From a virus, in IMG/VR virus record IMGVR_UViG_3300045988_032442, positions 1-14,324 of that record: a stretch of 14,324 bases of DNA, one strand, 5' to 3'. The notes under the pieces are model-generated. The model made no database searches and was not told the DNA's origin. It worked only from the letters and a program-made list of their open reading frames with translations. Position 1 is the stretch's first letter, and each line of letters begins with the position of its first letter. A program made the position numbers and the translations under genes. Below, in pieces: positions 1 to 14,324 of the stretch.

Positions 1-75
1 CACGTAATAGCAGATTGCACAAAATTTTCTTCCCCAACGCACCAATCTTTGTGCAAAATGTCAATAGACACAAAA
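1..75. repeat. Left inverted terminal repeat, 75 bp, perfect reverse complement of 14250-14324
   Basis: Base-by-base comparison: the reverse complement of 14250-14324 equals 1-75. The first mismatch or indel is at position 76. Contains an internal 9-bp inverted repeat, TTGCACAAA (15-23) and TTTGTGCAA (49-57). Confidence 0.95.
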
Positions 76-112
76 ATATAGTGCCCACGCCCCTGGGTAG
101 GGGAGTGGGCAC
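71..112 (-). terminator. Rho-independent terminator ending the leftward late operon
   Basis: GC-rich hairpin at 81-112: GTGCCCAC-G-CCCCT, loop GGGT, AGGGG-A-GTGGGCAC. On the minus strand it is followed by UAUAUUUUUGU (71-80) and lies 13 nt after the tailspike stop codon (125-127). Confidence 0.75.
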
Positions 113-124
113 AAGATACGATAA

Positions 125-2446
125 TTATGCGTTGGTTGTTGCCATTTTCTGCAAGTTGGCTTCACTGTTGCTCAACTCTAGGCCCGCTACGGTATTAGCT
201 CCAAAGAGGTTTCGGGAGCCCGACGAATCGAACGAAAGACCGGCAGTGTAGAAACAGGCCTCTACAGGAAGAATCGTATTAAAAAAGATTCTGTTGTCGG
301 TGCAGCCATTGACGGCAGATATGGCTGCGGCCTCGGTGTATTTAGTAGTGCGCTTAATTATGTTTTTTGAGATTTGACATCCTCTGGACTGTGTTAGTAC
401 TATGCAATTGTCCACATTGATGAATTGGCAGTTATCAACAACGCCCCCTTGTGTATTAGTCAGTTTAACGCCTCTACATGATTGTGTGCCAATAAATTGG
501 CAGTTGCTCACCACACCGGAAGAATTCAGAAATTCTACCATTATATCTTTTGCATTAAAATAGCACCTTTCAACTGTGACCAAACTGTTAGGGGAATTAA
601 CCACATAAACACACCTATTACACTGGTCTGCAATATAATCATTAATCCAGATATTCCACACCGGATCTCCGGAAGGGGCCGGATAGATTTGTATTGCCGT
701 ACTGGCATTCACACACTCGCAACTATCAATATACACATCTCTAATATCGCTCGAGTTGTACAAATTAAATTGTTGGCTGTCGCCCGTTGTATTGCCAAGA
801 CTGCTAATGCAGTTATAGAATCTAATAGAAGCGTTGCCGCTAATTCCAGAGGCTCCGCCGCTTGATTCGTCCAGAAGATACGACGAATAGGGGTTAGACG
901 ATTTATAAAAAGCGTCATGAATAATATTAGAGGTGTATATATTAATTGTGTTCGCATATTGCGCTATTCTACGACCGCCAATACACTGGAAATTATCAAT
1001 AGTTACACGCTCTGCATACTGCACATTGAAAAACTGCTGCACATTTTCAGCGGTTGCCACAAAAGTGGCGTTACGAATAGAGAGGCGTTCCACATGAGCG
1101 GTTGGGCTATCGCCCGTAATATTGATACAGCCATTAGGGCCAAAGCTCACAACATTATTACAGAAGTCATAAGATGTGTGGTTGTTAACTCTTACAGGTG
1201 CATCAATTTTATAAATTGTATCGGCTGTAAGGGTGTTGTTTGCAGCTCCCCAAGTACCATGTGACAGAAATTTAATAGTACCTGTAAAAGGTTGAATAGA
1301 ACCGCCATGGAAGACATCGGCGATACCGGTGTCGATAAACCAGTCCGCAATTGTCTCGCCTGCTTTGATTAAGAATGCTCCGCTATTTTTCCGCCTGAAA
1401 TGAAGGGTGCAGGGGGCTACGGGTTCTTTGATAGTCAGCGTAACACCCGATGCTACAACGATTGCACCGCTTGTCATGAGCGGAGACCCGATGTCAATTG
1501 CTCCGGTTATGATATATTCGCCGTTAGGAATGAACAAATCGCGGCCGGACGCAATGGCAGACGAGAATGCGTTAGTATCGTCGGCAGTTCCGTCACCTTT
1601 AGCGCCGTAGCTCTTAACGTTTGCGTAGTCAAGAACATTTTTTACATCCTGCTTCAACTGATTGATGCTATTTTGCAGGTTGCTGTCCGCATTCTTCCGG
1701 TCCTGTTTCTCGTTGTTGATGGCTGTCTGGAGGTCGTTGTCTGCGTTCTCCCGGGCCGTTTTCTCCGCGTCAATAGCCGTCTGGAGTTGCGTGTCGGCGT
1801 TCTCCCGGGCCGTTTTCTCCGCGTCAATAGCCGTCTGGAGTTGCGTGTCGGCGTTCTCCCGGGCCGTTTTCTCCGCGTCAATAGCCGTCTGGAGTTGCGT
1901 GTCGGCCTCCTGCCGGGCCGTTTGCTCTGCGTTCAATCGCTCATTAAACGTAGTAAGCAGGTAGTGCAGCACTTCATTTGTGGAGCTGCTCACGCAGTTA
2001 GAGCCGGGCACATAGGCGTCACCGGCGATCATTGCTCTAGTGACACGCACCAGCGCCCCATTGACCCAGACAAGATCGTTGACAGCTCTATTCGCTGTGG
2101 CGGTGGGGCTGTGCCCCTCATCGTAGGGGGTGATGGCTTTTTTCACATCGGCCCAAAGTTCATCGAAATTACCGATTTTTGTCCAAAACTCGGTACGGTC
2201 CAGAGACACACCGGAGGGGACAGGCCGCACGGACAGGTATGCGTTGCCGTTGCTGTCCACGACAACGGTGTTAGATTCATACTGGCTCGTAATGTTCCAC
2301 TGGATGGGGTTAGCATACTTAATTGTGGCCAAGCTGACGAAGTCTGTCAGTTTGGTATTAAACTCATTTAGCACCTCTATAATCCAATCCAGATTGAGGT
2401 CATGGAAATTGGTGTAGGGTGCTCTGTGAATAGGATTAATATTCAT
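125..2446 (-). CDS. Tailspike / appendage protein with pectate-lyase-fold beta-helix (putative depolymerase), phi29 gp12 position
   Basis: 773-aa ORF with AAGGAG 8 nt upstream of the ATG at 2446. The motif VKSYGAKGDGTADDTNAF...IPNGEY is typical of pectate-lyase-superfamily tailspikes, and N/S/G-rich beta-helix-like rungs follow it. Contains an 18-aa coiled-coil repeat stalk. It is the last gene of the structural block. Confidence 0.8.
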   Translation of the reverse strand: MNINPIHRAPYTNFHDLNLDWIIEVLNEFNTKLTDFVSLATIKYANPIQWNITSQYESNTVVVDSNGNAYLSVRPVPSGVSLDRTEFWTKIGNFDELWADVKKAITPYDEGHSPTATANRAVNDLVWVNGALVRVTRAMIAGDAYVPGSNCVSSSTNEVLHYLLTTFNERLNAEQTARQEADTQLQTAIDAEKTARENADTQLQTAIDAEKTARENADTQLQTAIDAEKTARENADNDLQTAINNEKQDRKNADSNLQNSINQLKQDVKNVLDYANVKSYGAKGDGTADDTNAFSSAIASGRDLFIPNGEYIITGAIDIGSPLMTSGAIVVASGVTLTIKEPVAPCTLHFRRKNSGAFLIKAGETIADWFIDTGIADVFHGGSIQPFTGTIKFLSHGTWGAANNTLTADTIYKIDAPVRVNNHTSYDFCNNVVSFGPNGCINITGDSPTAHVERLSIRNATFVATAENVQQFFNVQYAERVTIDNFQCIGGRRIAQYANTINIYTSNIIHDAFYKSSNPYSSYLLDESSGGASGISGNASIRFYNCISSLGNTTGDSQQFNLYNSSDIRDVYIDSCECVNASTAIQIYPAPSGDPVWNIWINDYIADQCNRCVYVVNSPNSLVTVERCYFNAKDIMVEFLNSSGVVSNCQFIGTQSCRGVKLTNTQGGVVDNCQFINVDNCIVLTQSRGCQISKNIIKRTTKYTEAAAISAVNGCTDNRIFFNTILPVEACFYTAGLSFDSSGSRNLFGANTVAGLELSNSEANLQKMATTNA
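1743..1904 (-). repeat. Three perfect tandem 54-bp repeats inside the tailspike gene, flanked by diverged copies (about 1689-1958)
   Basis: The unit GCGTTCTCCCGGGCCGTTTTCTCCGCGTCAATAGCCGTCTGGAGTTGCGTGTCG occurs at 1743-1796, 1797-1850 and 1851-1904. It is in frame and encodes DTQLQTAIDAEKTARENA three times. Degenerate copies lie on both sides. Confidence 0.95.
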
Positions 2447-2458
2447 AATTTCGACTCC

Positions 2459-3148
2459 TTAGTAAACCAGCAAACAAAAGTTTGCCCGGATGTCCGTAAC
2501 GATTTTATGAACGGCATTTTCCATTGCGAGGGTCAGCTCTTTGGCAATGAGGTCTTGCGGGTCCCGCCCTGCCCGGCCCTTCTCGGTTATGGTGTCTTCA
2601 TAGGCGTTTTGTGACTTTGTGGCGCTGTTATCGGCAGCGGTTTGATTGGCGGTGGTCGTGTCCGTGCCGCTGCTGGTAATGGTGTTCCCCGTACCGAGGG
2701 CCGTTGTGCTCCTCTCCGCGGTTTGCAAGGTCCCACTGTCGAACCCCGTAACATCCCGCGTAGTGCTGTCACTGCCTGTATTATGGCCGGTAGTGGTTAA
2801 GTTGGGTGTTCGTGTAGTTGTGCCGGTTGTGCTATTTGTGCGGTTATTAGTGCCGGAGCTAGTCTCGGTATGGTCGGCGGCTTTGGTTCGGTCATCCGTT
2901 GCCAATACATCATAGTCAAGACCTAGGGCCGTTGCGTACCGCGACCAGCTCGGAATCATGGTTTCAGAATAGACTCCAAGCGCCCGGCGCATTGTGGGGC
3001 CATCCGCATATAATACCTCCAATTCCAGCGTATCAAAAAGCAAATTATTGCATACAGTTTCTTTAGATACACTGTCGGGGACTTTCAAGTCCTCAAACAG
3101 TTCCGGGTATCCTGCCAACAACCCGTTAAAGCTCAAGGTTGAGTGCAT
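2459..3148 (-). CDS. Lower collar / tail tube adaptor candidate (phi29 gp11 position)
   Basis: 229-aa ORF with GGAGGTG 7 nt upstream of the ATG at 3148. It sits between the connector and tailspike genes, as gp11 does in phi29. The long T/S/N/G-rich alternating central segment is compatible with a beta-barrel tube. No motif was recognised with certainty. Confidence 0.45.
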   Translation of the reverse strand: MHSTLSFNGLLAGYPELFEDLKVPDSVSKETVCNNLLFDTLELEVLYADGPTMRRALGVYSETMIPSWSRYATALGLDYDVLATDDRTKAADHTETSSGTNNRTNSTTGTTTRTPNLTTTGHNTGSDSTTRDVTGFDSGTLQTAERSTTALGTGNTITSSGTDTTTANQTAADNSATKSQNAYEDTITEKGRAGRDPQDLIAKELTLAMENAVHKIVTDIRANFCLLVY

Positions 3149-4067
3149 CGTTGTTCACCTCCTGCGTATTAGTATCGGGCGGGAACCTCCAATCGACCCA
3201 CAAATTAGACTTGTCAATTCCAAACAGTTTGTGAACCCGTTCGCAGCCACGCTGCAAGCTGTCCAACCAGAGCGACGCTTTGGCAGCTGTCTCGACGTTG
3301 TTAGAGTTGACTTCGTCGGTCAACATCCGCTCTTTCTTGCTGGTATTAGTGTTCGGAATGCCCACTTCCGTGTCAAACAGCGCTTTAATGGTTTTAAGAG
3401 CGGTTAGCAGTTCGTTGGTGATGAAGTTCCCTTTGAGGTCTGTTGCAAAATACATCCACGGGGCTTGCCCGGATGCCCCATTCTTGGGCGCTTTGAGCAA
3501 AGAAGAATCAACAAAAACAGCCGGGTCGCCTTGCATGATGGAATCAAACATCTTTTTGAAAGATTCCGCACCAGCTTTGTTGCCTGCCGCAAACACGTAG
3601 GCAAGGCGGCTATTGATTAAATTGCTCTGGATGGTCTGGGCGGCAAGGGCCATCATGTCCCCATAATAGGCCACAATATCCACCATACCACGGTAATCGG
3701 GCTGCAAATTGATGATCTCACATTGTTTCCCGATCTGCAAATAGGGGGACCCTTTAATAAATGGGTTGGCAATGATGGAGTGCGTGGGATTGTAGAAGAT
3801 GTTAATGCCGGTTAGTCCCATTCGGTCATAAACTAGGCCATAACGGTCAGTGTTGAACACCGTGACGCCACCGGAACCGAAAACAAGATACTGCAAGCGG
3901 TTACAGGGCCATGTTTCGGGCAAGGTCCACCGGACCATAGACACGGCCTCAAGGAACAGATATTTTCGGAAATAATAGGACAGGCTGTTACCCTTTGTGT
4001 GCATCACGGAGGGAGTCACCGGTGACACATGTGTGTTAATTTGTTCGTAACTATAGGGAGCACTCAC
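3126..4067 (-). CDS. Head-tail connector (portal, upper collar), phi29 gp10-like
   Basis: 313-aa ORF whose GTG start overlaps the upstream stop (GTGA), with GGGAGG 9 nt upstream. The C-terminal segment KKERMLTDEVNSN...LQRGCERVHKLFGI resembles phi29 gp10 KKERMVTDEVSSN...EEACEKINELYGL as recalled from memory. Its size matches gp10 (about 309 aa). Confidence 0.85.
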   Translation of the reverse strand: MSAPYSYEQINTHVSPVTPSVMHTKGNSLSYYFRKYLFLEAVSMVRWTLPETWPCNRLQYLVFGSGGVTVFNTDRYGLVYDRMGLTGINIFYNPTHSIIANPFIKGSPYLQIGKQCEIINLQPDYRGMVDIVAYYGDMMALAAQTIQSNLINSRLAYVFAAGNKAGAESFKKMFDSIMQGDPAVFVDSSLLKAPKNGASGQAPWMYFATDLKGNFITNELLTALKTIKALFDTEVGIPNTNTSKKERMLTDEVNSNNVETAAKASLWLDSLQRGCERVHKLFGIDKSNLWVDWRFPPDTNTQEVNNDALNLEL

Positions 4068-4645
4068 AACAGACGACCTCCCTTCGCCATCTTAAACAGC
4101 AGCCATACCGGCAATTTGCCAGTAGGCCACGGCCCAGGGCCAGGGCCTGGCCCTGGGCCTGGCCCTGGGCCTGGCCCTGGGTCAGGGCCGGGGCCTGGGC
4201 CCGAGTCCCATTCAACGTCCCATGTGCCGACCTGATTCGGGATTCTGATAATGCTGGACGGGTCCCTCAGGTTTCCAGCGGCATCGGCGTACTCCCAATG
4301 CGTGTGAATGCCTGTTACGTAACCGGTCTGGCCCTGTGTGCCGATAAATTGCCCCTTAGAGATTGTGTCGCCCACGTTCCAAATTTGCGAGGCAAAGTGT
4401 GCGGCCCGCCATGTTGTGCCGTCGGCCATCCGTACCTTGATCATGTTTCCCCACGACTGATCGCCCGAGGTGCTGCCGTTCCAATGCTGGGCCGCGACCA
4501 CCACGCCCGCTTCGGGCGCATAGGCTTTATGGTTGCCGTGCACCGTGTCAATGCCCCGGTGGGGGCTGCCGTCAGAGTAAGCCGGGTAGCCCGCGGTGAC
4601 TCTGATCGGTGACACGTCAGTAATGCACTGTTTGTATACTGCCAT
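4064..4645 (-). CDS. M23-family (LytM-type) metallopeptidase, tail-associated peptidoglycan hydrolase candidate
   Basis: 193-aa ORF with GGAGGCGC upstream of the ATG at 4645. It carries HRGID (HxxxD) and GIHTHWE (HxH) zinc-ligand motifs. The C-terminus has a Gly-Pro linker and a short hydrophobic/basic tail. phi29 gp13 carries an M23 domain in its tail. Confidence 0.85.
   Translation of the reverse strand: MAVYKQCITDVSPIRVTAGYPAYSDGSPHRGIDTVHGNHKAYAPEAGVVVAAQHWNGSTSGDQSWGNMIKVRMADGTTWRAAHFASQIWNVGDTISKGQFIGTQGQTGYVTGIHTHWEYADAAGNLRDPSSIIRIPNQVGTWDVEWDSGPGPGPDPGPGPGPGPGPGPGPGPWPTGKLPVWLLFKMAKGGRLL
4129..4206 (-). repeat. GGCCCT/GGGCCT microsatellite encoding a (Gly-Pro) linker of about 12 units
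   Basis: Visible repeat ggcccagggccagggcctggccctgggcctggccctgggcctggccctgggtcagggccggggcctgggccc. It translates on the minus strand as SGPGPGPDPGPGPGPGPGPGPGPGPWP. Confidence 0.95.
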
Positions 4646-4657: not shown

Positions 4658-6073
4658 CTACTCTAAAAAGAATCCATTTTTCATATAACTTTTAACGCTG
4701 TCAATCTCGGCGGCTGTTGCGGGCAGCGCAATATCTGGGTCGTCTACCATAATGAAACCCGGTATACTGAACAGTTGCACCTTTTGACACAGGGGCCGCC
4801 CGTGGTGCTCGTTGTTGTCGTCCGCAAGATCGTAAAAGGCCCCTGTCAAATACGGCGTAATACCATATTTTGCGACGCTGGCCCCTCCGCCTTTTGATTG
4901 ACTTGCAACGGTCATTTGCTGGGCACCGGAGGCAATACCGTTGGTAATATCGCCACCGCCGAAAAAGGATCCAATACCTCCGGCAATAGCACCGACGGCG
5001 GTTTGAATTAGTCCGCCAAAACTTGCCAATTCATCTATATTAGTTGCAATCTGCGCCAGCTGCACAGGTACCGAAACGTTGCCCGACGTGGAGAAGAAAA
5101 TAGTGTTAAAATCTTTATTAAATGACAAGTCCAGTATTGCGTCACCCGTGCGGTAATCAACAGTTAATCTGCAATACAAGGTACTTTGCAGCACGAACAA
5201 GTTGGCATTTAATTTAATCTCCCCAAATGGAGGACAATATAACGTGTACTCGGAATAAGGTGCTCCGTCTGTATAAACGCCCCTCGTAATGTGCTGCGGA
5301 TGATGAGGGGTGGAGATATTGAACGTGAATACCTGCTTATCATTGTTGTTTTGTATTACATAAGCGTTCCCGATATTCTTCATTTTCCACCACCCAACAG
5401 GAACCTCGTTAATGGGAGTTCCGATGGCCGTGTTTCCGCAAGGTATCCAGAACGCTTTTGAAATATACTGAATAGGATTGAAAAGTGCTTTAGTTAAGTT
5501 ACTGCTGATCTCGTCAGCGCTGATATTCAAGTAATCAGTATTCTGCAAAAGAGCAGCCATTAACTTTTGAAATGCGGTCCCGCTCATTGCAAGATAAATT
5601 GCACCGCCGAACGATACATAGCCGGGGGCATTGACGACCACAACAAAAAATCCTTGACTGCCGCTTTCCGGGTCATCCGTGAAGGGCGTATAATTTGCAT
5701 AGAGGGTTTTCGTGGTAATCGTTGCTTTTGTAGGGTACAAATTATCTACGATTTTAGGGTCGTACTTGGCCGAGGACCTCACCACATATTCAGTAGAGTA
5801 TCCGATCTGGTCGCGGTAGCTTGCGAGAGTGTCAACAGTCAGTGACGCATTCCAGAGCCTGTCAGAATATGTCCAGTTCTTCACCCAGTAATACCGGCTA
5901 AAGGTGGGCATATAACAATAATTGTACCTGGTGGGGTCACCCTCTGTTGCAATCTTAATTTCCGGGTTAATGATGTTACAGGGGGCTTTAAGGTCAATAA
6001 CCTTTTTAAGACCGTCACTGGGCCGTTTTGTGCTGTTTGTGCGCTTCGCGAACTGATAAAATGTAGCTTGCAT
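4658..6073 (-). CDS. Tail knob / distal tail tube protein candidate (phi29 gp9-like)
   Basis: 471-aa ORF with GGAGG 6 nt upstream of the ATG at 6073. The N-terminal layout (YNYCYMPTFSRYYWVKNW...LTVDTLASY) recalls the gp9 N-terminus (SYIMFQN...KWFYAFV...EIDVLQTW). A Gly-rich hydrophobic segment at residues 349-404 resembles the gp9 membrane-active loop. It lies directly after the capsid gene. Confidence 0.5.
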   Translation of the reverse strand: MQATFYQFAKRTNSTKRPSDGLKKVIDLKAPCNIINPEIKIATEGDPTRYNYCYMPTFSRYYWVKNWTYSDRLWNASLTVDTLASYRDQIGYSTEYVVRSSAKYDPKIVDNLYPTKATITTKTLYANYTPFTDDPESGSQGFFVVVVNAPGYVSFGGAIYLAMSGTAFQKLMAALLQNTDYLNISADEISSNLTKALFNPIQYISKAFWIPCGNTAIGTPINEVPVGWWKMKNIGNAYVIQNNNDKQVFTFNISTPHHPQHITRGVYTDGAPYSEYTLYCPPFGEIKLNANLFVLQSTLYCRLTVDYRTGDAILDLSFNKDFNTIFFSTSGNVSVPVQLAQIATNIDELASFGGLIQTAVGAIAGGIGSFFGGGDITNGIASGAQQMTVASQSKGGGASVAKYGITPYLTGAFYDLADDNNEHHGRPLCQKVQLFSIPGFIMVDDPDIALPATAAEIDSVKSYMKNGFFLE

Positions 6074-6085: not shown

Positions 6086-6117
6086 ACAAAATAACCGGAG
6101 GGCATAGGCCCTCCGGT
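6086..6117 (-). terminator. Intrinsic terminator / attenuator immediately after the major capsid gene
   Basis: Perfect 10-bp stem ACCGGAGGGC (6094-6103) and GCCCTCCGGT (6108-6117) with a 4-nt loop. On the minus strand it is followed by UAUUUUGU and sits 5 nt after the capsid gene stop. Confidence 0.7.
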
Positions 6118-8004: not shown

Positions 8005-8163
8005 TTAACTCTCCTTCTTGATGTCGTCCAGAGCAAGTCGCATCTCGGTAATAGCCGCCGTGTTCTCCTTAACGACGGTGTTGCACTGATACCACATCAG
8101 CAGAAACGCTGCAATCGGAAATCCCACGTTAGAAATAGTCTGAATCACAGTATTAGCGTCCAT
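8005..8163 (-). CDS. Small membrane protein, YvrJ-family-like (holin candidate); below the ORF-track size cutoff
   Basis: Hand translation gives MDANTVIQTISNVGFPIAAFLLMWYQCNTVVKENTAAITEMRLALDDIKKES (52 aa). AAGGAGG lies 9 nt upstream of the ATG at 8161-8163, and the stop TAA at 8005-8007 lies 2 nt before the next start. ISNVGFPIA plus a hydrophobic helix and a charged helix matches my memory of the YvrJ family. Confidence 0.6.
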   Translation of the reverse strand: MDANTVIQTISNVGFPIAAFLLMWYQCNTVVKENTAAITEMRLALDDIKKES

Positions 8164-8177
8164 TTTGTGCACCTCCT

Positions 8178-8260
8178 TACAAATACAAGTAAATCCCCGG
8201 TTCTTGCGCTGGCTGACGCATGCCCACCCCTTCTGGGGGCTGCCTAGGGCGCCGGGGATT
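8178..8260 (-). promoter_or_regulatory. Structured RNA (putative three-way junction closed by a 9-bp stem) with a 3' U-rich tract, between the late promoter and the first late RBS
   Basis: On the minus-strand RNA, AAUCCCCGG (8260-8252) pairs with CCGGGGAUU (8200-8192). The enclosed 51 nt can form a CCCC/GGGG plus GCCC/GGGC hairpin and a short GCG/CGC hairpin. UUACUUGUAUUUGU follows the closing stem. The plus strand also has a T-run (ATTATTTTT) after the stem. Confidence 0.45.
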
Positions 8261-8266: not shown

Positions 8267-8295
8267 AGTATATACTACTCTTTAAAAAAAGTCAA
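8267..8295 (-). promoter_or_regulatory. Sigma-70/SigA-type promoter for the late (morphogenesis/lysis) block
   Basis: On the minus strand: TTGACT (8295-8290), a 17-nt spacer, then TATACT (8272-8267). The -35 element overlaps the ATPase stop codon. Confidence 0.55.
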
Positions 8296-9353: not shown

Positions 9354-10014
9354 ACAAACACCCCCACTGTTCGGCCATAGCTGCGGCAATACCTGAAAAC
9401 GTTTTGCTTCTTATTTTTGGGTCTCTTTCTTTTCTGCCTTGAAATTTTCTGTATTTTCCGTGCGCATCTTTGCAACCGCCATTTACATATGGTTCGTGCT
9501 TTTTAATAATTGCTGTTGGTTTAAGGGGACTAATGCCTTTCAACCACAAACAAGTTCGCTTACTGAATGGATGCCCGAATTGGTAAGGCTGTATTGCTTG
9601 TGTATATTCTGGCAATCCAATAATTTTCATTGGCGTCGGATTTTCAATAGCAATTCTACTACATTTTGCGTTATAAAATCGCATAAAAAACGCTTTAGCC
9701 TCCAGGGCTTTATTGTACCGCTCTTGCACTATCTGGCCCTTAACCCTCATCCGTACAGCACCGGCATTTGTCATGTACGTGCAGGGAGGAAACGCAATAA
9801 TCATATCCCATTCGCCAATTATTATATGTAACATGCCATCAATTGTAGTAAACGTACAATTTCCGTTAATCAGAGGCAAAACGTCCCCCAATATATGCCA
9901 TTCAGGACGCCCCCCGGATGGCTCTTTAATATCTGCACTATATGCTTCATGCCCACGTTCCCGGAACGCTTTACACACAGTCTGTGATTCTTCGCAAGCT
10001 ACTAAAACTTTCAT
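9346..10014 (-). CDS. DNA cytosine-C5-methyltransferase-like protein (tentative)
   Basis: 222-aa ORF whose ATG lies 1 nt after the polymerase stop, with GGAGG 9 nt upstream. AFPPCTY (Pro-Cys, motif IV-like) and IAIENP (ENV-like motif VI) are present. The N-terminus MKVLVACEESQ...GHEAYS.D resembles a phage family often annotated as a cytosine methylase. There is no canonical FxGxG motif. Confidence 0.5.
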   Translation of the reverse strand: MKVLVACEESQTVCKAFRERGHEAYSADIKEPSGGRPEWHILGDVLPLINGNCTFTTIDGMLHIIIGEWDMIIAFPPCTYMTNAGAVRMRVKGQIVQERYNKALEAKAFFMRFYNAKCSRIAIENPTPMKIIGLPEYTQAIQPYQFGHPFSKRTCLWLKGISPLKPTAIIKKHEPYVNGGCKDAHGKYRKFQGRKERDPKIRSKTFSGIAAAMAEQWGCLYD

Positions 10015-10015: not shown

Positions 10016-12106
10016 TCATAATACCTCCATAATCTTGTACCCGAGTATCTTTGCGTATTCGTCGGTTATTCCCAACGTGTAGGTATTATCACAAATACAC
10101 AGGTTTCTTGTTATATGAACCGTATGCCCGTCAACCACAAAATCCGGCACACGGGGCCTGTCATTATAAATAACCTGGTTTCCTGCGGCAAGACAAAACG
10201 TAAAGCCGGGCTTGAATGCTTCAAAACCACCCCAGAGGGCCAGCTCCAAACCTCCCTTCCGCTTGCTAACTCCTGCTATAGTGGTAGTGATCGGCCCGCC
10301 TTTTTTATAGGTAGTTGCGTATTTTTTAGCGCCCCAAGTCATAAACTCCGCGTAGCAGCGCTCCTGCTCGTACACGCCCATGTAATGGGTATTGCCTTTT
10401 GGGTCTGCAGCGCAAGCACCGGTATCTTTTGCAAGCTGCTTTACGGCTTTGTTAAAGTCCGACAAATCAATATTGCCCATGTACTTAACAGAATCAGTAT
10501 CGCAATACACGCCATTTCTGCCCGCGGCCCATTGCGCTATTTTTAGGCGCTTGCGAGTGTGAGCCGTTGTCCATACGCCCCATTGGTACGGCAGGAACAA
10601 ATGCGGGCGGTGGTCGTTATAACTGCCCTCCGGGTCGTCGGTGCATTCGCTCCAGAGATTGTCGAGGTCGTCCTCATCAAAAAGTGTGTCCAGCTGCAAG
10701 GGGTCCTGTGCTGTCATACCGTAGTAGCTGTTAAGGTCGCCCTTAGCTTTGACATAATACAAATCTTGACCGGCTACACCTTTAAGGGATGTCTTGCCGG
10801 TGTAGCTCTCTTTGACGCAATCCGTCAGGGGCTTTGGCAGTTTGCCATAATCGGACGTATACAGGTCCAGAACGTTAAGGGCATCCCAGTCATACTCTTT
10901 TGCAATGATTCTAAAATCTATATCTGTTATGGTGATCTCGAAATGTTCAGCAGACAGCAAACGGCCATTGTCGTTTATGTATCCTTCACAATGCCGAACT
11001 TTTGCAAGCGGGATATAGGGGAATCCCCACCACTTAAAACGCTGGCGCAAACCTTTTACTTGCAAGCGCATCAAACACGCCTTGCCGTGTTTCATACATT
11101 GCATCAGCCGCTCGACGGTGGCCGGTTCCTGCCTAAATGGAGTCATCGGAAAGTAACATTCACATTGCACGGCGGGGTACGCGCTCGACATATCCACGGA
11201 ACCGACGTCTTCCAGATGGAGCCCCACATAATACCGATTGGCGTGGGTGTCACCGCCTCGGAATGCCTCGCGCAGCATTTGATACAATTCCCACGACGGC
11301 AAAAGGCGCTTGACCCGTTTAATGCCCCATTTATACATAGCTTCACGGGCCATCCGTCTGACATAGCCGGTGCGCGTCAGGGGTAATGTATACAGGTCGT
11401 CCCCGTCTCGCTTCATCTCGATTAACAGGCACTCCACAATGCACCGAACATCGTTGATGCAATACGCTAATTCTGTAGACGTTAAGGGCGTCCAGGGATA
11501 CCGGACCTTTGAGTAATCGAGTGTGCCGGTTAATTTGGCATGAGGGGCCCCCAGCTGCTTGCCCCAAGCATCAAGGGACATGTTGCTGTGTCTCATACTG
11601 CACCGGTATTCAATAGCTCGGTTGTCACATTTTAAAACCCTGCGGGGCTTGCTGGCGAACACATCGCCCGGGCCGAAATCCAAAACGCCCGACAGATATT
11701 GGAATTCATGGGCAAGATTATGGACGTACATACACAGATACCAGTCACCCGATGGCCCGCTGATGGCTTGCAAGTAGTCGCTGATCGCACCTGTAAAATT
11801 CAACCACTCATCCCACGTCCTGCCGATAATGGTAATATCTAAACCCAGCTGACATTGCCAGATATACATAATGGTGTGGGGGTTGTCGTCGGCGTCAATA
11901 CATACTCGGCTCGTCTCAATATCAAACGCGCAAGGCATATCCACATACAATCGTTTTTTGTTTGTTTTGCGCTTCTTGCCTTTTGTGTGCTTGCGGTCCA
12001 GGTGCTCCATAAGCCAGGGGACAGGATTGTAATTACAAGCCTCCTCCAAAACCTCCGCGCAGGTCGGCAGAGCTGCTCCCCTCGCTGTAGTCCCATTCTG
12101 TGCCAT
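10016..12106 (-). CDS. Protein-primed family-B DNA polymerase
   Basis: Exo I is FDIETS, Exo II-like is HNLAHEF, and Exo III is YCINDV. Motif A is DMSSAYPA, motif B is KGDLNSYYG, motif C is YCDTDSV, and KxY is GAKKYA. The preferred start is the ATG at 12106 (GGTGAGG 6 nt upstream); the GTG at 12118 is an alternative. It overlaps the upstream gene by about 74 nt. Confidence 0.93.
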   Translation of the reverse strand: MAQNGTTARGAALPTCAEVLEEACNYNPVPWLMEHLDRKHTKGKKRKTNKKRLYVDMPCAFDIETSRVCIDADDNPHTIMYIWQCQLGLDITIIGRTWDEWLNFTGAISDYLQAISGPSGDWYLCMYVHNLAHEFQYLSGVLDFGPGDVFASKPRRVLKCDNRAIEYRCSMRHSNMSLDAWGKQLGAPHAKLTGTLDYSKVRYPWTPLTSTELAYCINDVRCIVECLLIEMKRDGDDLYTLPLTRTGYVRRMAREAMYKWGIKRVKRLLPSWELYQMLREAFRGGDTHANRYYVGLHLEDVGSVDMSSAYPAVQCECYFPMTPFRQEPATVERLMQCMKHGKACLMRLQVKGLRQRFKWWGFPYIPLAKVRHCEGYINDNGRLLSAEHFEITITDIDFRIIAKEYDWDALNVLDLYTSDYGKLPKPLTDCVKESYTGKTSLKGVAGQDLYYVKAKGDLNSYYGMTAQDPLQLDTLFDEDDLDNLWSECTDDPEGSYNDHRPHLFLPYQWGVWTTAHTRKRLKIAQWAAGRNGVYCDTDSVKYMGNIDLSDFNKAVKQLAKDTGACAADPKGNTHYMGVYEQERCYAEFMTWGAKKYATTYKKGGPITTTIAGVSKRKGGLELALWGGFEAFKPGFTFCLAAGNQVIYNDRPRVPDFVVDGHTVHITRNLCICDNTYTLGITDEYAKILGYKIMEVL

Positions 12107-12632
12107 AGTTGACCTCACCTTGCTGCCACTTTACAAAATCGTCGATACTGACGTTATAGCCGCCTTTCTCGCGCCAATACATGACCGGTTGGTCAGACGG
12201 ATAGTAATACACGCCCGACGCCTTCACGATCTCCCACCATTCAGACAGGGCCGTGTATTGTTCCTCGGGCACGTCGGCAATGTCAATACCACCGACTTTC
12301 ATTTTTCGCTCAAATTCTGCACGCGCCCCTCCAACGGTGGAACCCTTTGAACGAACAAACCGCGCAACATCCGCAAGGGCCTGTTCCAATGCTTTTCGGT
12401 CTCCTCGCATTGCTTTTAATGTCGGGAATCCCCCGGCAAACTCTTTATAAACGTCGCTTGTGCCGCTGATGGGGTCTTTTGATAGGCGCTTAATACGTTT
12501 CTGCGCAATGTCGCGCAGTCGAGTGTATTCTTTTCGCATCTGATTATCAGGCCAAGACTCCAAAGCGTAGGGGGTGTACAGCTCTGGACTGTATTTGAGG
12601 GTTGCGCTTGCTTTAGCTGCGCCTACTGCCAT
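12033..12632 (-). CDS. Terminal protein candidate (replication primer)
   Basis: 199-aa ORF immediately upstream of, and overlapping, the polymerase gene, as in phi29 (gene 3-gene 2) and PRD1 (VIII-I). The genome has ITR ends. AAAGGAG lies upstream of the ATG at 12632. The C-terminus is acidic and Ser/Gly/Tyr-rich. No sequence motif recognised. Confidence 0.5.
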   Translation of the reverse strand: MAVGAAKASATLKYSPELYTPYALESWPDNQMRKEYTRLRDIAQKRIKRLSKDPISGTSDVYKEFAGGFPTLKAMRGDRKALEQALADVARFVRSKGSTVGGARAEFERKMKVGGIDIADVPEEQYTALSEWWEIVKASGVYYYPSDQPVMYWREKGGYNVSIDDFVKWQQGEVNYGTEWDYSEGSSSADLRGGFGGGL

Positions 12633-12843
12633 GCTTCTTCCGCTCCTTTCTATTCATAATCATATAATACCAGTTGAGGGGGTCTGCTTCAATGCCTAGG
12701 ACGTTAAAAATGATTTTAGCCCATTCAGATCGGAAAAATTCAACATCTTTGTTTGTGACTCCACTGTATACAATAGCAGAGGCAAGATATACCATGGAGT
12801 CATCGCAGTTCAGCAAGGTTAGTCGGTTATCTGTAATTTTCAT
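12613..12843 (-). CDS. Hypothetical 76-aa protein (phi29 gene 4 position)
   Basis: GGAGG lies 4 nt upstream of the ATG at 12843. The ORF overlaps the next gene by 20 nt and has a basic C-terminus, NRKERKKHGSRRS. Function unknown. Confidence 0.6.
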   Translation of the reverse strand: MKITDNRLTLLNCDDSMVYLASAIVYSGVTNKDVEFFRSEWAKIIFNVLGIEADPLNWYYMIMNRKERKKHGSRRS

Positions 12844-12850
12844 GGGGCCT

Positions 12851-12887
12851 CCTATAATAAATAAGGCCGCCGCATTGCGGCGGCCTT
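12851..12887 (-). terminator. Perfect 11-bp GC-rich hairpin with a modest U-tract (partial terminator or mRNA-stabilising hairpin) after the SSB-like gene
   Basis: AAGGCCGCCGC (12863-12873), loop ATT, GCGGCGGCCTT (12877-12887). On the minus strand it is followed by AUUUAUUAUAGG, which runs into the next RBS. Confidence 0.55.
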
Positions 12888-12895
12888 TGGTTAGA

Positions 12896-13330
12896 TTAAA
12901 CCAGATTCAAAGACAAAACCTGCCCTTTTTTGGTGCTGATAAGAACAGGTTTGATTTTCACCGGCTCCGTCCACGTGTCAGGGGTCCCTAGCAGCGTAAA
13001 CATACGCTTCAAAGACTGATACACGCCGACGGAGACGCAGGCGTACGACTGCCCGTCATCGGTAATGAGGACGACACGCGGGGCAATCGTTTTGCCCTCG
13101 GGAACGTCGTCCTTGCTGACCTCCACACACTCCACGGAGACATGAACCAGCGACAGAACCTCGTTGACGTGCTCCTTAAGCTTGTTGGCGGGGTTGCTGG
13201 TCGCGTTGTAGAAGGCAACCGCGACAGCACGGTCAGAAAGATTCATGTCGGTGTACCCGACCCCGGTGTTCATCACGTCGGACACCATCATAGCACCAGT
13301 GTTTTCGGACTTCATCATTGCTTCGGACAT
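12896..13330 (-). CDS. Single-stranded DNA-binding protein candidate (phi29 gene 5 position)
   Basis: 144-aa ORF with AAGGAG 9 nt upstream of the ATG at 13330. The sequence is beta-rich (VSVECVEV..., RVVLITDDGQSYACVSVGVYQSL, PVKIKPVLISTKKGQVLSLNLV), compatible with an OB-like fold. Its position is upstream of the TP/pol genes. The assignment rests on synteny and composition only. Confidence 0.35.
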   Translation of the reverse strand: MSEAMMKSENTGAMMVSDVMNTGVGYTDMNLSDRAVAVAFYNATSNPANKLKEHVNEVLSLVHVSVECVEVSKDDVPEGKTIAPRVVLITDDGQSYACVSVGVYQSLKRMFTLLGTPDTWTEPVKIKPVLISTKKGQVLSLNLV

Positions 13331-13353
13331 AATACAAAACTCCTTTCAATATG

Positions 13354-13408
13354 TGCCCTGTCTCATCAGTACCGGGCGGGCAGTCCCGGTAGACGGCCCG
13401 GAGGCCGT
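13354..13408 (-). promoter_or_regulatory. Two adjacent GC-rich hairpins in the leader of the SSB-like gene, with possible loop-to-downstream pairing
   Basis: H1 is ACGGCC/GGCCGT (13393-13408). H2 is TACCGGG/CCCGGTA (13370-13391). The H2 loop UGCCC is complementary to GGGCA at 13354-13358. There is no U-tract on the minus strand, but the plus strand has TTCGACTTTTATTTTT (13409-13424) after H1. Confidence 0.4.
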
Positions 13409-13416
13409 TTCGACTT

Positions 13417-13683
13417 TTATTTTTGGAGATACTCACGGTAGCAGGATTCAACCGCATCGCGGACCTTGGCAGCACTCTGGTACATGAGCTGGGACGACAG
13501 GCAGGTGTTCTTGTTTGCCTCCAGGGTTCTCACTTGCTCATTGCAATGTATGAGAGCTTGCTTGAATCCGGCCAACCATGCACGATCATTGGAGGTCCTG
13601 TATCTGTCGTCGGGCTCCTCATATTCGCAACAAATCAGCGTGCCATCGGGGCGTACCTCGATGATGAATTTACGCATCTCCAT
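13417..13683 (-). CDS. Hypothetical 88-aa protein (phi29 gene 6 position); start revised from the ORF track
   Basis: GAAAGGAG (13700-13693) lies 9 nt upstream of the ATG at 13681-13683 (MEMRKFIIEV...). The ORF-track start at 13761 has no RBS and would run through the better-supported 59-aa ORF. Confidence 0.55.
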   Translation of the reverse strand: MEMRKFIIEVRPDGTLICCEYEEPDDRYRTSNDRAWLAGFKQALIHCNEQVRTLEANKNTCLSSQLMYQSAAKVRDAVESCYREYLQK

Positions 13684-13849
13684 CTTCCTGGGCTCCTTTC
13701 TGCCAACCAAACATGACCTTCGCAAGACTGACAATGACCTTGATACTGTCGATAATATCATTCTCGGTCAGTTCTTGCAGGTTCTTACCATCAAAAGTAA
13801 TGTTATCATCGGTTATAGTGATTATAATCTTAATTTCGTTACTTGTCAT
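13670..13849 (-). CDS. Hypothetical 59-aa protein, not in the ORF track (below cutoff)
   Basis: Hand translation gives MTSNEIKIIITITDDNITFDGKNLQELTENDIIDSIKVIVSLAKVMFGWQKGAQEDGDA. GGAGG lies 6 nt upstream of the ATG at 13847-13849. It overlaps the upstream stop by 11 nt and the downstream start by 14 nt. Confidence 0.5.
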   Translation of the reverse strand: MTSNEIKIIITITDDNITFDGKNLQELTENDIIDSIKVIVSLAKVMFGWQKGAQEDGDA

Positions 13850-14129
13850 AGGCTGCCTCCGTATGATACTTATTGTATTTTTTATTTACTTCAACAAGAA
13901 GCTTCTCCACTGGGATATTTGCACAAATTATAAATGCGAAACAGGATATAAGAACATGAGCTAATTCCTCTAATATCTCATTAAAAGACCCCTTTCTATT
14001 TCTTTCAAAATGCGACAAAGCTACAATGAGTTCTGCGCATTCCTCTCTTAATATTACACTTTGCAAATATCCATCACTGTTTCTAAACAATGTAGCAGTT
14101 TCTAATACAGAATTTAATAAACTTTTCAT
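13839..14129 (-). CDS. MazG-like all-alpha NTP pyrophosphohydrolase-fold protein (tentative)
   Basis: First gene after the early promoters. REECAELIVA...NEILEELAHVLISCFAFII...VEKLLVEVNKKYNKY fits the two-helix MazG pattern (ExxE...EExxD), with His where Asp is usual. The preferred start is the ATG at 14129; the ORF-track start at 14141 is a TTG abutting the GAAAGG RBS. Confidence 0.4.
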   Translation of the reverse strand: MKSLLNSVLETATLFRNSDGYLQSVILREECAELIVALSHFERNRKGSFNEILEELAHVLISCFAFIICANIPVEKLLVEVNKKYNKYHTEAAYDK

Positions 14130-14162
14130 TTCGTCAACCAACCTTTCTGTTTCGTTGTCTAT

Positions 14163-14208
14163 ATTATATCACACATCATATTGTATATGTTGCTGTGTAC
14201 ATTGTAAA
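14163..14208 (-). promoter_or_regulatory. Tandem early promoters reading leftward from the right end
   Basis: P1 on the minus strand is TTTACA (14208-14203), a 17-nt spacer, then TACAAT (14185-14180). P2 is an extended -10, TGATATAAT (14171-14163). Both lie just inside the right ITR and upstream of the first gene. Confidence 0.55.
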
Positions 14209-14249
14209 AATTGCGATACTCCCCTGCCCAGGTGATGCGGTACAACATA

Positions 14250-14324
14250 TTTTGTGTCTATTGACATTTTGCACAAAGATTGGTGCGTTGGGGAAGAAAA
14301 TTTTGTGCAATCTGCTATTACGTG
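14250..14324. repeat. Right inverted terminal repeat (75 bp)
   Basis: Exact reverse complement of 1-75. Imperfect homology continues inward: 14218-14234 matches 90-106 at 15 of 17 positions. Confidence 0.95.

What the first reader, a model, noticed from the sequence alone, without database searches (positions are those of the whole stretch)
1..14324. Complete 14.3-kb ITR-bounded, protein-primed mini-podovirus genome with strictly unidirectional gene order
The window begins and ends with a perfect 75-bp inverted repeat. It encodes a family-B polymerase carrying the protein-primed subgroup motifs, plus gp16-like ATPase, gp10-like connector, gp8-like capsid and gp9-like tail knob genes. It therefore looks like a full phi29-type replicon and virion gene set. 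By established knowledge phi29 is about 19.3 kb and transcribes early and late genes divergently. Here the genome is about 5 kb shorter and every gene is on one strand. The packaging ATPase sits at the end of the replication block, upstream of the late promoter, rather than at the end of the late operon. No integrase or repressor is visible.
Basis: partly seen in the sequence, partly recalled or inferred. Interest (0 to 1): 0.75.

Follow-up and report, generated by a model that had tools for sequence, protein, structure and literature searches.

The report
Small gut phi29-like phage genome
This is a nearly complete genome of a small phi29-type phage from the human gut; the genome type is already known, but it carries a previously undescribed small RNA that looks like a miniature of the packaging RNA known so far only from Bacillus phi29 phages.

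Summary
The window starts and ends with a perfect 75-bp inverted repeat. All credible genes lie on the minus strand. Pfam and PHROG confirm a phi29-type polymerase, SSB, gp16 ATPase, capsid protein, gp10 connector, M23 peptidase and gp12-like tailspike. The tail knob has indirect support only. The terminal protein is assigned by position only.

The genome type is not new. GenBank MT836263.1 is 86% identical, and 28 IMG/VR contigs carry the same terminal repeat. The cultured Amedibacillus phages AD70P2 and AD70P3 (Guelinviridae, 12.2 kb) have the same order of polymerase, ATPase and late genes on essentially one strand. Related contigs end 3-4 nt further out (GGGA-CACG...), and one has Illumina adapter fused to both ends. 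The ends are therefore real, and the window is slightly trimmed.

- **Hammerhead ribozyme:** a type II hammerhead at 13352-13415.
- **Three-way-junction RNA:** a 69-nt RNA at 8192-8260, at the start of the late transcript. It occurs once per genome across divergent relatives and shows strong covariation. It has the helix order of phi29 prohead RNA, including complementary loops that change together between clades. I read it as a probable miniature pRNA (about 0.55).

The parts
1..75 (.). Terminal inverted repeat at the tailspike end. The true end probably lies about 4 nt further out (GGGA).
   Evidence: 100% complementary to 14250-14324; relatives end GGGACACG..., and L004 has Illumina adapter fused at both ends; the repeat is 73-153 bp in relatives.
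14250..14324 (.). Terminal inverted repeat at the early-gene end.
14180..14208 (-). Promoter-like site for the early genes (TTTACA-17-TACAAT).
   Evidence: This is a consensus match only.
13839..14141 (-). Small early ORF (100 aa) with weak MazG-like similarity. This region varies among relatives.
   Evidence: phrog_2245, 1.3e-6. (MazG-like, below the cut-off). (few relatives share it).
13417..13761 (-). Early ORF of 114 aa, function unknown.
   Evidence: no family; the region is shared by about 20 relatives.
13352..13415 (-). Type II hammerhead self-cleaving ribozyme between orf114 and the SSB gene. The predicted cut follows GUC at about 13387.
   Evidence: RF02276, 48.5 bits against gathering score 37, E 1.5e-7; present at the same place in 23 relatives, with stems 99-100% paired.
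12896..13330 (-). phi29-type single-stranded DNA-binding protein.
   Evidence: PF17427, 34.8 bits against cut-off 25. (phrog_6243).
12863..12887 (-). Terminator-like hairpin after the SSB gene.
   Evidence: 11-bp stem, 9 G-C pairs, T-rich tail.
12613..12843 (-). ORF of 76 aa, function unknown.
12033..12632 (-). Candidate terminal protein (199 aa). It lies directly upstream of and overlaps the polymerase ORF. It is predicted helical, with a basic N-terminal helix and an acidic, Ser-rich C-terminal tail (invariant S186 and S188).
   Evidence: Assigned by position and conservation only. No similarity to the phi29 terminal protein by sequence, profile or fold.
10016..12118 (-). Family-B DNA polymerase of the protein-primed type. 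The real start is probably the ATG at 12010.
9346..10014 (-). Cytosine-methyltransferase-like gene. It is an insertion absent from the 29 close relatives in hand.
   Evidence: phrog_757, 1.8e-52. (no relative covers 9401-10000). (widespread family in small and large phage contigs).
8292..9389 (-). gp16-type DNA packaging ATPase. The start is probably the ATG at 9353.
8267..8295 (-). Late promoter TTGACT-17-TATACT, conserved in all relatives.
8192..8260 (-). Three-way-junction RNA at the 5' end of the late transcript; a candidate miniature prohead RNA. It has an outer stem, a first hairpin with a one-sided internal loop and a CAGAA apical loop, and a second hairpin whose loop (GCC) is complementary to the internal loop (GGC).
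8005..8172 (-). Holin-like small protein, the first late gene.
   Evidence: phrog_4898, 1.8e-6.
7769..8002 (-). ORF of 77 aa, function unknown.
   Evidence: conserved in L033.
7399..7782 (-). Probable scaffolding protein with a (PQPA)n repeat. It is assigned by its position before the capsid gene.
   Evidence: This is an inference from the phi29 gene order.
6123..7397 (-). phi29-type major capsid protein.
   Evidence: PF25622, 63.5 bits..
6094..6117 (-). Terminator-like hairpin after the capsid gene.
4658..6073 (-). Probable tail knob protein (gp9 position).
   Evidence: Searches support it. Searches found nothing.
4064..4645 (-). M23 peptidase with a Gly-Pro repeat, comparable to the peptidase domain of phi29 gp13.
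   Evidence: (matches phi29 gene 13).
3126..4067 (-). gp10-type head-tail connector.
   Evidence: PF05352, 59.5 bits. (phrog_2038, 1.1e-26).
2459..3148 (-). Candidate lower collar (gp11 position).
   Evidence: phrog_3225, 'adaptor Ad4', E 0.0098, weak. Position as in phi29.
125..2446 (-). Tailspike or pre-neck appendage (gp12-like) with a coiled-coil repeat and a pectate-lyase-like domain. The C-terminal two-thirds varies between relatives.

Best explanation
The window is the genome of a virulent phi29-like podovirus from the human gut, lacking about 4 nt at each end. It belongs to an abundant, uncultured, roughly genus-level clade of 13-14 kb genomes.

**Shown**
- The DNA is linear, with real physical ends and a 75-bp (or longer) inverted terminal repeat.
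- One strand carries first an early block: small ORFs, hammerhead ribozyme, phi29-type SSB, candidate terminal protein, protein-primed-type PolB, an acquired methyltransferase-like gene and the gp16 ATPase.
- A conserved sigma70 promoter follows, then a late block: structured RNA, holin-like protein, scaffold-like protein, capsid, knob-like protein, M23 peptidase, connector, collar candidate and tailspike.

**Inferred from phi29**
- Replication starts at both ends from a terminal protein that primes the polymerase. The terminal GGG would allow sliding-back.
- The ATPase and connector package unit-length DNA.
- The hammerhead cuts the early transcript upstream of the SSB message.

**Probable (about 0.55)**
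- The 69-nt three-way-junction RNA at 8192-8260 is a miniature counterpart of phi29 prohead RNA. It would form a ring on the connector through loop-loop pairing and dock the ATPase.

The confidence of 0.9 given for this explanation refers to the identity of the genome, not to the RNA reading.
For: **Ends**
- Perfect ITR.
- 28 independent IMG/VR contigs carry the same terminal sequence within 0-17 nt of a contig end, and 6 of them at both ends.
- Contigs stop at GGGA-CACG..., and one has adapter fused at both ends.

**Gene set**
-. The phi29 polymerase is the only PDB hit.

**Relatives**
- MT836263.1: 86% identity over 90% of the window.
- 28 IMG/VR contigs: 82.5-87% identity over the aligned parts (63-86% of the window for the near-full-length contigs).
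- 771 clusters for the knob-like protein.
- The same gene order in AD70P3 and AD70P2.
- In the nearest outgroup, MT835998, the block of terminal-protein candidate, polymerase and ATPase is inverted as a unit relative to the late block. This supports two separate modules.

**RNA**
- Within the clade, 99.6% of cells are paired and 4 pairs show compensatory changes.
- A sequence-only MAFFT alignment of divergent clades gives 13 of 13 predicted pairs with compensatory changes.
- Model R2 finds one hit per genome in 80 of the 100 sources searched (99 loci plus the window), with E from 1e-16 to 0.39, all but two at or below 4.5e-6, and no second hit at E <= 1. It also finds hits in contigs from horse and cattle guts.
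- The covariation score is 0.651, against 0.18 for shuffles and at most 0.185 for slid controls.
- The internal loop and the second hairpin loop are complementary by a mean of 3.95 Watson-Crick pairs, with different sequences in different clades. Permuted loops give 2.44 +/- 0.17, and 0 of 10,000 permutations reach the observed value.
- 21 of 27 elements lie 2-13 nt downstream of a promoter matching 10 or more of 12 consensus positions; the background rate is 0.4%.
- In one clade a tRNA-Gln starts 1 nt after the element, so RNase P would release it as a discrete RNA.
- The helix order and the one-sided internal loop match the Rfam pRNA consensus.
Against: **Genome**
- No terminal protein could be recognised by sequence, profile or fold.
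- The knob assignment is indirect.
- No reads are available, so a covalent protein at the ends is untested.

**RNA**
- It does not match Rfam Phage_pRNA.
- It is 62-83 nt long, against at least 120 nt for phi29 pRNA.
- Its outer helix is only 6-16 bp and lacks the bulged region that phi29 needs for gp16 binding.
- It sits at the head of the late mRNA rather than near a genome end.
- The junction nucleotides are distributed differently: 4-5 nt after the second hairpin, against 0 in phi29.
- The loop-loop pairing could form within one molecule.
- No element was found in phi29, Astrithrvirus, Clostridium phage HM2 or two other gut contigs.
Confidence: 0.9

Rival explanations
1. The structured RNA at 8192-8260 is a cis-acting leader of the late mRNA and not a packaging RNA. 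It could be a 5' stabiliser, a processive antitermination element like HK022 put, or a ligand- or protein-sensing switch. The loop-loop pairing would then be a tertiary contact within one molecule.
For: - It starts at the predicted +1 of the late promoter and is followed after 20-40 nt by the ribosome-binding site of the first late gene.
- A strong hairpin follows the capsid gene and could need read-through.
- No consistent terminator follows the element.
- There is no match to the Rfam pRNA model.
Against: - In the L034 clade a tRNA begins 1 nt after the element. Processing would therefore detach it from the mRNA.
- The topology, with a one-sided internal loop complementary to the other arm's apical loop, is the specific signature of pRNA.
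- The phage has the gp16 and gp10 motor, which in phi29 depends on pRNA.
Confidence: 0.35
2. The inverted terminal repeat is an assembly artefact, and the molecule is circular or circularly permuted.
For: Only the general fact that assemblers can create terminal repeats.
Against: - 28 independent contigs from several metagenomes carry the same sequence at their ends, 6 of them at both ends, and all stop within a few nucleotides of the same base.
- Sequencing adapter is fused to the same terminal base at both ends of L004.
- Repeat length varies from 73 to 153 bp between relatives, as expected for real evolving repeats.
Confidence: 0.03
3. The element is a satellite-like phage that, like Acinetobacter phage Phanie, needs the tail of a helper phage to be infectious.
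For: - The polymerase is about 31-34% identical to those of the Astrithrvirus and Phanie group.
- Phanie depends on a helper myophage (PMC11476376, section 2.6).
Against: - The Gram-negative group splits the knob into two genes and has no recognisable tail fibre or spike.
- This genome has a single 471-aa knob-like gene, a gp12-like tailspike and an M23 peptidase.
- Its closest cultured relatives, the Amedibacillus phages, are deposited as isolates with a named host and complete genomes.
Confidence: 0.05

Closest known systems
GenBank MT836263.1 (UNVERIFIED Bacteriophage sp., human faeces, Mexico) and IMG/VR contigs L004-L031
   Same: - 82.5-87% nucleotide identity; the near-full-length contigs cover 63-92% of the window.
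- The same ITR sequence and gene order.
- The same hammerhead position and the same 3WJ RNA.
   Different: - The window is the longest, at 14.3 kb against 12.8-13.9 kb.
- It alone carries the methyltransferase-like insertion at 9346-10014.
- It has a different tailspike C-terminal part and a different first early gene.
- The public records are unannotated.
Amedibacillus phages AD70P2 and AD70P3 (Guelinviridae, 12.2-12.3 kb, cultured)
   Same: - The order is polymerase, small genes, packaging ATPase, a gap of about 120 nt with promoter, scaffold, capsid, knob-like gene, portal and spike, almost all on one strand.
- A 3WJ element with the same topology sits in that gap.
   Different: - Protein identity is only 22-35%.
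- GC content is 26.7% for AD70P2 (PMC11476376), against about 50% here.
- Three small genes lie on the opposite strand at one end.
- No hammerhead was found in AD70P3.
- Their RNA element scores at the edge of background in my search (dG -16.7).
Bacillus phage phi29 (Salasmaviridae)
   Same: - Protein-primed-type PolB, SSB, gp16 ATPase, gp10 connector, capsid fold family, gp12-like appendage and gp13-like M23 domain.
- The late genes run in the order 7-8-9-10-11-12.
   Different: - phi29 is 19.3 kb with a 6-bp ITR, divergent operons, gene 16 last in the late operon and a 174-nt pRNA near the left end.
- Here the genome is 14.3 kb with a 75-bp or longer ITR and one strand.
- The ATPase precedes the late promoter, and the M23 gene lies between the knob and connector genes.
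phi29 prohead RNA (Rfam RF00044)
   Same: - A three-way junction.
- The order is 5' strand of the closing helix, then a hairpin with a basal stem, a one-sided 5' internal loop, an inner stem and an apical loop, then a second hairpin, then the 3' strand of the closing helix.
- The internal loop is complementary to the loop of the second hairpin, and that pair differs between lineages.
   Different: - 62-83 nt against 118-174 nt.
- The basal stem is 4-5 bp against 9 bp, and the closing helix 6-16 bp against about 25 bp with bulges.
- The junction spacing differs.
- The apical pentaloop CNGAA is conserved.
- It is encoded at the 5' end of the late operon.
- The Rfam model gives no score.
Type II hammerhead ribozymes of phages and prophages (RF02276; Perreault et al. 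2011, PMC3088659)
   Same: - The score is above gathering, with a full catalytic core (CUGAUGA, GAAA, GUC).
- The stem I loop can pair with the 3' tail (UGCCC with GGGCA), like the pseudoknot described for this type.
- It lies between genes in a phage transcript.
   Different: Most relatives carry changes at core positions 3 and 8 (U3 with A8 plus an extra U, U3 with G8, or C3 with A8). Whether these variants still cleave is unknown.

Membership tests
phi29-like protein-primed podoviruses (Salasmaviridae, Guelinviridae, Rountreeviridae and unclassified relatives) | Linear dsDNA with inverted terminal repeats at real molecular ends | tested here: met
phi29-like protein-primed podoviruses (Salasmaviridae, Guelinviridae, Rountreeviridae and unclassified relatives) | Family-B polymerase of the protein-primed subgroup (Exo I-III, motifs A, B and C, TPR1 and TPR2 regions) | tested here: met
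   PF03175 above its cut-off. The phi29 polymerase is the only PDB hit, and the alignment is continuous from Exo III (YCINDV) through DMSSAYP, KGDLNSYYG and YCDTDS, including the two inserted regions. FDIET and HNLAHEF are visible.
phi29-like protein-primed podoviruses (Salasmaviridae, Guelinviridae, Rountreeviridae and unclassified relatives) | Terminal protein gene next to the polymerase gene, with the protein covalently bound to the 5' ends | tested here: inconclusive
   A conserved 199-aa helical protein is encoded directly upstream. It has no detectable similarity to the phi29 terminal protein. Covalent linkage cannot be tested here.
phi29-like protein-primed podoviruses (Salasmaviridae, Guelinviridae, Rountreeviridae and unclassified relatives) | gp16-type ATPase, gp10-type connector and phi29-type capsid protein | tested here: met
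   (all three above the Pfam cut-offs)..
phi29-like protein-primed podoviruses (Salasmaviridae, Guelinviridae, Rountreeviridae and unclassified relatives) | gp9-type tail knob | tested here: inconclusive
   No sequence, profile or PDB fold match. BFVD fold matches to 'major tail protein' entries and to the 568-aa uncharacterized protein of Salmonella phage Astrid. Homologous to AD70P3 gp5 at the same position. Model pLDDT is only 63.
Guelinviridae (ICTV family of the nearest cultured relatives) | Placement inside the family by genome-wide proteomic or intergenomic similarity | not tested
   VIRIDIC, vConTACT and phylogeny were not run. Polymerase identity to the Amedibacillus phages is 35%. 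The review notes that Guelinviridae members split into separate clusters.
Prohead RNA (pRNA, Rfam RF00044) | Match to the curated covariance model | tested here: not met
   No hit at E <= 1 anywhere in the window. The model does find phi29's own pRNA at 145 bits.
Prohead RNA (pRNA, Rfam RF00044) | Three-way junction with a closing helix, a C/E arm carrying a one-sided internal loop, and a D arm | tested here: met
   compared with the consensus structure.
Prohead RNA (pRNA, Rfam RF00044) | Complementary CE-loop and D-loop sequences that covary between phages | tested here: met
   (0 of 10,000 permutations reach the observed value). Out-of-sample cases are L149, L158, L159 and L160. Whether the pairing is between molecules was not testable.
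Prohead RNA (pRNA, Rfam RF00044) | Bound to proheads and required for DNA packaging | not testable with these tools
   This needs biochemistry or cryo-EM.
Hammerhead ribozyme type II (RF02276) | Score above gathering, conserved core, three stems with stem II open | tested here: met
   (48.5 bits against 37). (stems 99-100% paired, with one compensatory pair U-A to C-G).
Hammerhead ribozyme type II (RF02276) | Self-cleavage | not testable with these tools
   An in vitro transcription and cleavage assay is needed.

The most novel reading that the evidence does not exclude
Prohead RNA is not confined to Bacillus phi29 phages. A large group of 11-14 kb phi29-like phages from human, horse and cattle guts encodes a miniature pRNA of 62-83 nt. 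The cultured Amedibacillus phages may belong to this group too. The RNA is transcribed from the late promoter as the first element of the late operon. In one clade it is released by tRNA processing.
Probability: 0.55. Interest if true: 0.78.

Novelty: new member of a known kind. Interest (0 to 1): 0.55.

Why it matters
As a genome, it adds one more member to a well-populated but uncultured clade of very small tailed phages of the gut, and that is ordinary.

The RNA matters more. The papers I could search describe pRNA as unique to phi29 and its Bacillus relatives (PMC5066667, PMC11476376). Its role in the packaging motor is still debated. A natural minimal version with many covarying sequences would show which parts of pRNA are essential. 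It would test whether a gp16-type ATPase always needs an RNA adaptor. It would also give new self-assembling three-way-junction scaffolds for RNA nanotechnology. A candidate element in the cultured Amedibacillus phages would make this directly testable.

Tried and rejected
- **Knob-like protein:** the PDB sequence search, the hhalign comparison with phi29 gp9 and Foldseek against PDB gave nothing usable. Only BFVD gave matches.
- **Terminal-protein candidate:** no family in PHROG, Pfam or NCBIfam. No PDB sequence or profile match. The hhalign comparison with phi29 gp3 gave only an insignificant 20-residue match. The predicted fold matched nothing. There was no similarity to the AD70P3 protein at the same position.
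- **Host:** a scan of bacterial genomes found the phage only as whole-contig members of metagenome bins labelled Collinsella, Prevotella, Butyricicoccus, Treponema, Lachnospiraceae and Bacteroidales. These labels contradict each other and are most likely binning errors. Canonical TTGACA/TATAAT promoters and GGAGG ribosome sites suggest a Bacillota host, but that is inference only.
- **First RNA model (R1):** it was built from the close clade only and was too narrow. It gave E of 0.19-2 for the true distant elements.
- **Hand-written structure descriptor:** it gives several weak chance hits per genome, with dG above -18. I therefore used energy, position and a second model.
- **Pseudoknot counting by column:** this was unreliable on the model-fitted alignment because two clades are shifted by one or two columns. 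The permutation test replaces it.
- **Rfam hits to sX13 and mir-8993 at about 4100-4210:** these are artefacts of the GGCCCn repeat that encodes the Gly-Pro linker.
- **Other intergenic regions:** 13762-13838 and 14142-14260 show no stable structure.

Full report
**1. The observation**

The window begins and ends with a perfect 75-bp inverted repeat, 1-75 against 14250-14324 (read directly). All ORFs with family support are on the minus strand. The long plus-strand ORFs lie antisense within them.

Pfam hits above the curated cut-off are DNA_pol_B_2, Podovirus_Gp16, Phage_connector (GP10), Phi29_MCP, Phi29_Phage_SSB and Peptidase_M23. PHROGs agree. They add a pre-neck-appendage or tailspike match for the 773-aa protein, a holin-like match for the 55-aa ORF and a 'DNA methyltransferase' match for the 222-aa ORF.

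The only solved structure the polymerase matches is the phi29 polymerase. The alignment runs from Exo III through motif A, the TPR1 region, motif B, the TPR2 region and motif C. No tRNA gene is present. No integrase or repressor family was hit.

**2. Are the ends real?**

The first 33 bases of the repeat occur in 28 IMG/VR contigs, always within 0-17 nt of a contig end, and at both ends in six of them. Many of these contigs run 2-4 nt further and read GGGA-CACGTAATAG. In L004 the Illumina adapter GCTCTTCCGATCT is fused directly to GGACACG at both ends.

These are therefore physical DNA ends, and the window lacks about four terminal nucleotides. Repeat length in relatives is 73-153 bp. A terminal GGG would permit the sliding-back step of protein-primed initiation. 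That is an inference from phi29 and PRD1 biology and is not shown here.

**3. What is unproven in the gene set**

*Terminal-protein candidate.* The 199-aa ORF directly upstream of the polymerase is conserved down to 41% identity. It is predicted to be helical with a disordered, acidic, Ser-rich C-terminus. It shows no detectable relation to the phi29 terminal protein by sequence, profile or fold, nor to the protein at that position in AD70P3. It is a terminal-protein candidate by position only.

*Tail knob.* The 471-aa protein has no Pfam, PHROG or PDB match. It sits between the capsid and connector genes, as gene 9 does in phi29, apart from the M23 peptidase gene (4064-4645) that lies between it and the connector here. 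It is homologous to the AD70P3 protein in that slot. Its model (pLDDT 63) matches predicted structures of podovirus 'major tail proteins' and the 568-aa uncharacterized protein of Salmonella phage Astrid. That protein has the length of the gp10 homologue in astrithr, which the 2024 review relates to the C-terminal part of the phi29 knob.

**4. Is the genome type new?**

No.
- GenBank MT836263.1 (unverified, unannotated, human faeces) is 86% identical over 90% of the window.
- The 28 IMG/VR contigs are 82.5-87% identical over the aligned parts. These cover 63-86% of the window for the near-full-length contigs and less for the 5-8 kb fragments.
- The knob-like protein alone has 771 clusters in the large protein collection, on contigs of up to about 14.1 kb.
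- The cultured Amedibacillus phages AD70P2 and AD70P3 (Guelinviridae, 12.2-12.3 kb) have the same order of polymerase, ATPase, capsid, knob-like gene, portal and spike, on one strand apart from a few small genes.
- Astrithrvirus also places the ATPase right after the polymerase.
- The review PMC11476376 surveys more than 2000 phi29-related entries, including many 12-16 kb genomes from human metagenomes.

Three regions distinguish the window from its close relatives:
- the methyltransferase-like gene at 9346-10014, absent from all 29 relatives in hand and belonging to a very widespread phage gene family;
- the tailspike C-terminal part;
- the first early gene.

In the nearest outgroup, MT835998, the block of terminal-protein candidate, polymerase and ATPase lies on the opposite strand and converges on the late block.

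**5. A hammerhead ribozyme**

Rfam finds a type II hammerhead at 13352-13415 on the coding strand, between orf114 and the SSB gene (48.5 bits, gathering score 37). The element is present at the same place in 23 relatives. Its stems are 99-100% paired, and there is one compensatory change at the pair that closes stem I. The stem I loop can pair with the 3' tail, like the pseudoknot described for this type (PMC3088659).

Only 4 of 24 sequences, including the window, have the canonical CUGAUGA core. The others have U3/G8, C3/A8, U3/A8, or U3/A8 plus an extra U. From published hammerhead work, which I recall and did not test here, positions 3 and 8 form a pair, so U3/A8 may preserve activity.

The likely role is to cut the early transcript so that the SSB message starts with a 5'-OH and a hairpin. 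This is inference.

**6. A conserved RNA at the head of the late operon**

*In the window's clade.* The 119-nt gap between the ATPase and holin-like genes holds a conserved promoter (TTGACT-17-TATACT). About 6 nt downstream of it lies a 69-nt three-way junction at 8192-8260. Among 25 close relatives, 99.6% of cells are paired and four pairs show compensatory changes. Slid controls give 18-51% paired. An invariant U-G pair, together with a score of 94.9 bits on the coding strand against 12.9 on the other, points to RNA and to this strand.

*In distant relatives.* The same architecture appears with unrelated sequence at the same syntenic place in MT836587, MT835998 and AD70P3. A structure descriptor I wrote finds one outstanding candidate per genome in divergent IMG/VR contigs, with dG of -22 to -47. 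Other hits reach at best -18, and shuffled genomes give 0 to -16.7.

*Covariation.* A sequence-only MAFFT alignment of 26 divergent elements lets RNAalifold recover the closing helix and both hairpins, with compensatory changes in 13 of 13 predicted pairs. A covariance model built from that alignment finds one hit in each of 80 of the 100 sources searched (99 loci plus the window). E-values run from 1e-16 to 0.39, and all but two are at or below 4.5e-6. It finds no second hit at E <= 1. It also finds hits in contigs binned into MAGs from human, horse and cattle guts. On the model alignment the covariation score is 0.651, against 0.18 for shuffles and at most 0.185 for slid controls. That alignment is fitted to the structure, so the sequence-only result is the less biased one.

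*Transcript position.* 21 of 27 elements lie 2-13 nt downstream of a promoter matching 10 or more of 12 consensus positions. At random positions the rate is 0.4%.

**7. Why I think it is a miniature pRNA**

The order of parts is the same as in the Rfam consensus for phi29 pRNA:
- the 5' strand of the closing helix;
- a hairpin with a basal stem, an internal loop on the 5' side only, an inner stem and an apical loop;
- a second hairpin;
- the 3' strand of the closing helix.

In pRNA the one-sided internal loop (CE loop, AACC) pairs with the loop of the second hairpin (D loop, GGUU) of the neighbouring molecule. Here the two corresponding loops are complementary in nearly every clade, with different sequences:
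- GGC/GCC (the window)
- GCUA/UAGC
- GCACA/UGUGC
- UUGCA/UGCAA
- GCAUA/UAUGC
- UGCAC/GUGCA
- GACCA/UGGUC
- UCAGC/GCUGA
- UGACC/GGUCA
- UCC/GGA

The mean is 3.95 Watson-Crick pairs, against 2.44 +/- 0.17 when the loops are permuted among elements, and 0 of 10,000 permutations reach the observed value. This feature was not part of the descriptor. It also holds in elements found later: L149, L158, L159 and L160.

The apical pentaloop is CNGAA in almost all clades, which suggests a conserved protein contact. In the MT836587 clade a tRNA-Gln begins one nucleotide after the element. RNase P processing would therefore release it as a discrete RNA.

The phage also has the gp16 and gp10 motor that depends on pRNA in phi29.

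Against this reading:
- it has no Rfam match;
- it is about half the length of phi29 pRNA;
- it has a short closing helix without the bulges that phi29 needs for gp16;
- its junction spacing differs;
- it sits at the start of the late mRNA;
- the loop pairing could form within one molecule.

The searchable literature describes pRNA as unique to phi29 and its Bacillus relatives. Two full-text searches found no report of it elsewhere. The library lacks most subscription journals, so this is not proof that no one has described it.

**8. Host**

The host is unresolved. The MAG labels are contradictory. Promoter and ribosome-site types suggest Bacillota, by inference only.

**9. Verdict**

As a genome it is a new member of a known kind and of modest interest.

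Noticed in passing
window 13352-13415 (-): A type II hammerhead ribozyme lies between orf114 and the SSB gene. The window has the canonical core. Most relatives carry U3/A8 plus an extra U, U3/G8 or C3/A8, so positions 3 and 8 appear to change together.
   Followed up: partly
window 9346-10014 (-): A cytosine-methyltransferase-like gene (PHROG 757) is inserted between the polymerase and ATPase genes. It is absent from all 29 close relatives in hand. Copies 84-85% identical occur on contigs of about 12-14.5 kb, possibly other small phages, and more distant copies occur on much larger contigs.
   Followed up: partly
L034 8489-8564 (-); also L036, L070 and L110: In the MT836587 clade a tRNA-Gln(UUG) gene starts 1 nt after the three-way-junction RNA, so tRNA processing would define that RNA's 3' end. 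The window has no tRNA gene.
   Followed up: partly
L033 (MT835998.1), 9375-13665 against 1183-7898: In the nearest outgroup the early block (terminal-protein candidate, polymerase, ATPase) is on the opposite strand from the late block and converges on it. The structured RNA stays with the late promoter at 1044-1126.
   Followed up: partly
L129-L134 and L033, 10-20 nt downstream of the RNA element: Several clades have UUCCG or UCCG just downstream of the element. This is complementary to the conserved apical loop CGGAA. It is absent in the window's clade. It could be an extra pseudoknot or a regulatory pairing.
   Followed up: no
L004 1-17 and its last 17 nt: A public IMG/VR contig retains untrimmed Illumina adapter at both ends. 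This was useful as evidence for physical ends, but it is a contaminant in the database record.
   Followed up: yes
L155-L160: Whole phage genomes of this group are binned into MAGs labelled Collinsella, Prevotella, Butyricicoccus, Treponema caballi, Lachnospiraceae and Bacteroidales. The labels contradict each other and are probably mis-binning.
   Followed up: partly
window 1654-1881, 4100-4190 and 7590-7700 (-): There are three in-frame repeat tracts: an 18-aa coiled-coil repeat (EKTARENADTQLQTAIDA, 3-4 copies) in the tailspike, a (GP)n linker in the M23 peptidase, and a (PQPA)n tract in the scaffold-like protein. The (GP)n tract causes the spurious Rfam hits (sX13, mir-8993) and the local inverted repeats I2, I6 and I11.
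   Followed up: partly
window 76-112 and 14213-14249: Just inside the perfect repeat, both ends keep a similar motif (CCTGGGNAGGGGAGT). At the tailspike end it forms a strong hairpin (GTGCCCAC...GTGGGCAC; the fold of 1-124 has z = -3.3), which may be the late terminator.
   Followed up: no
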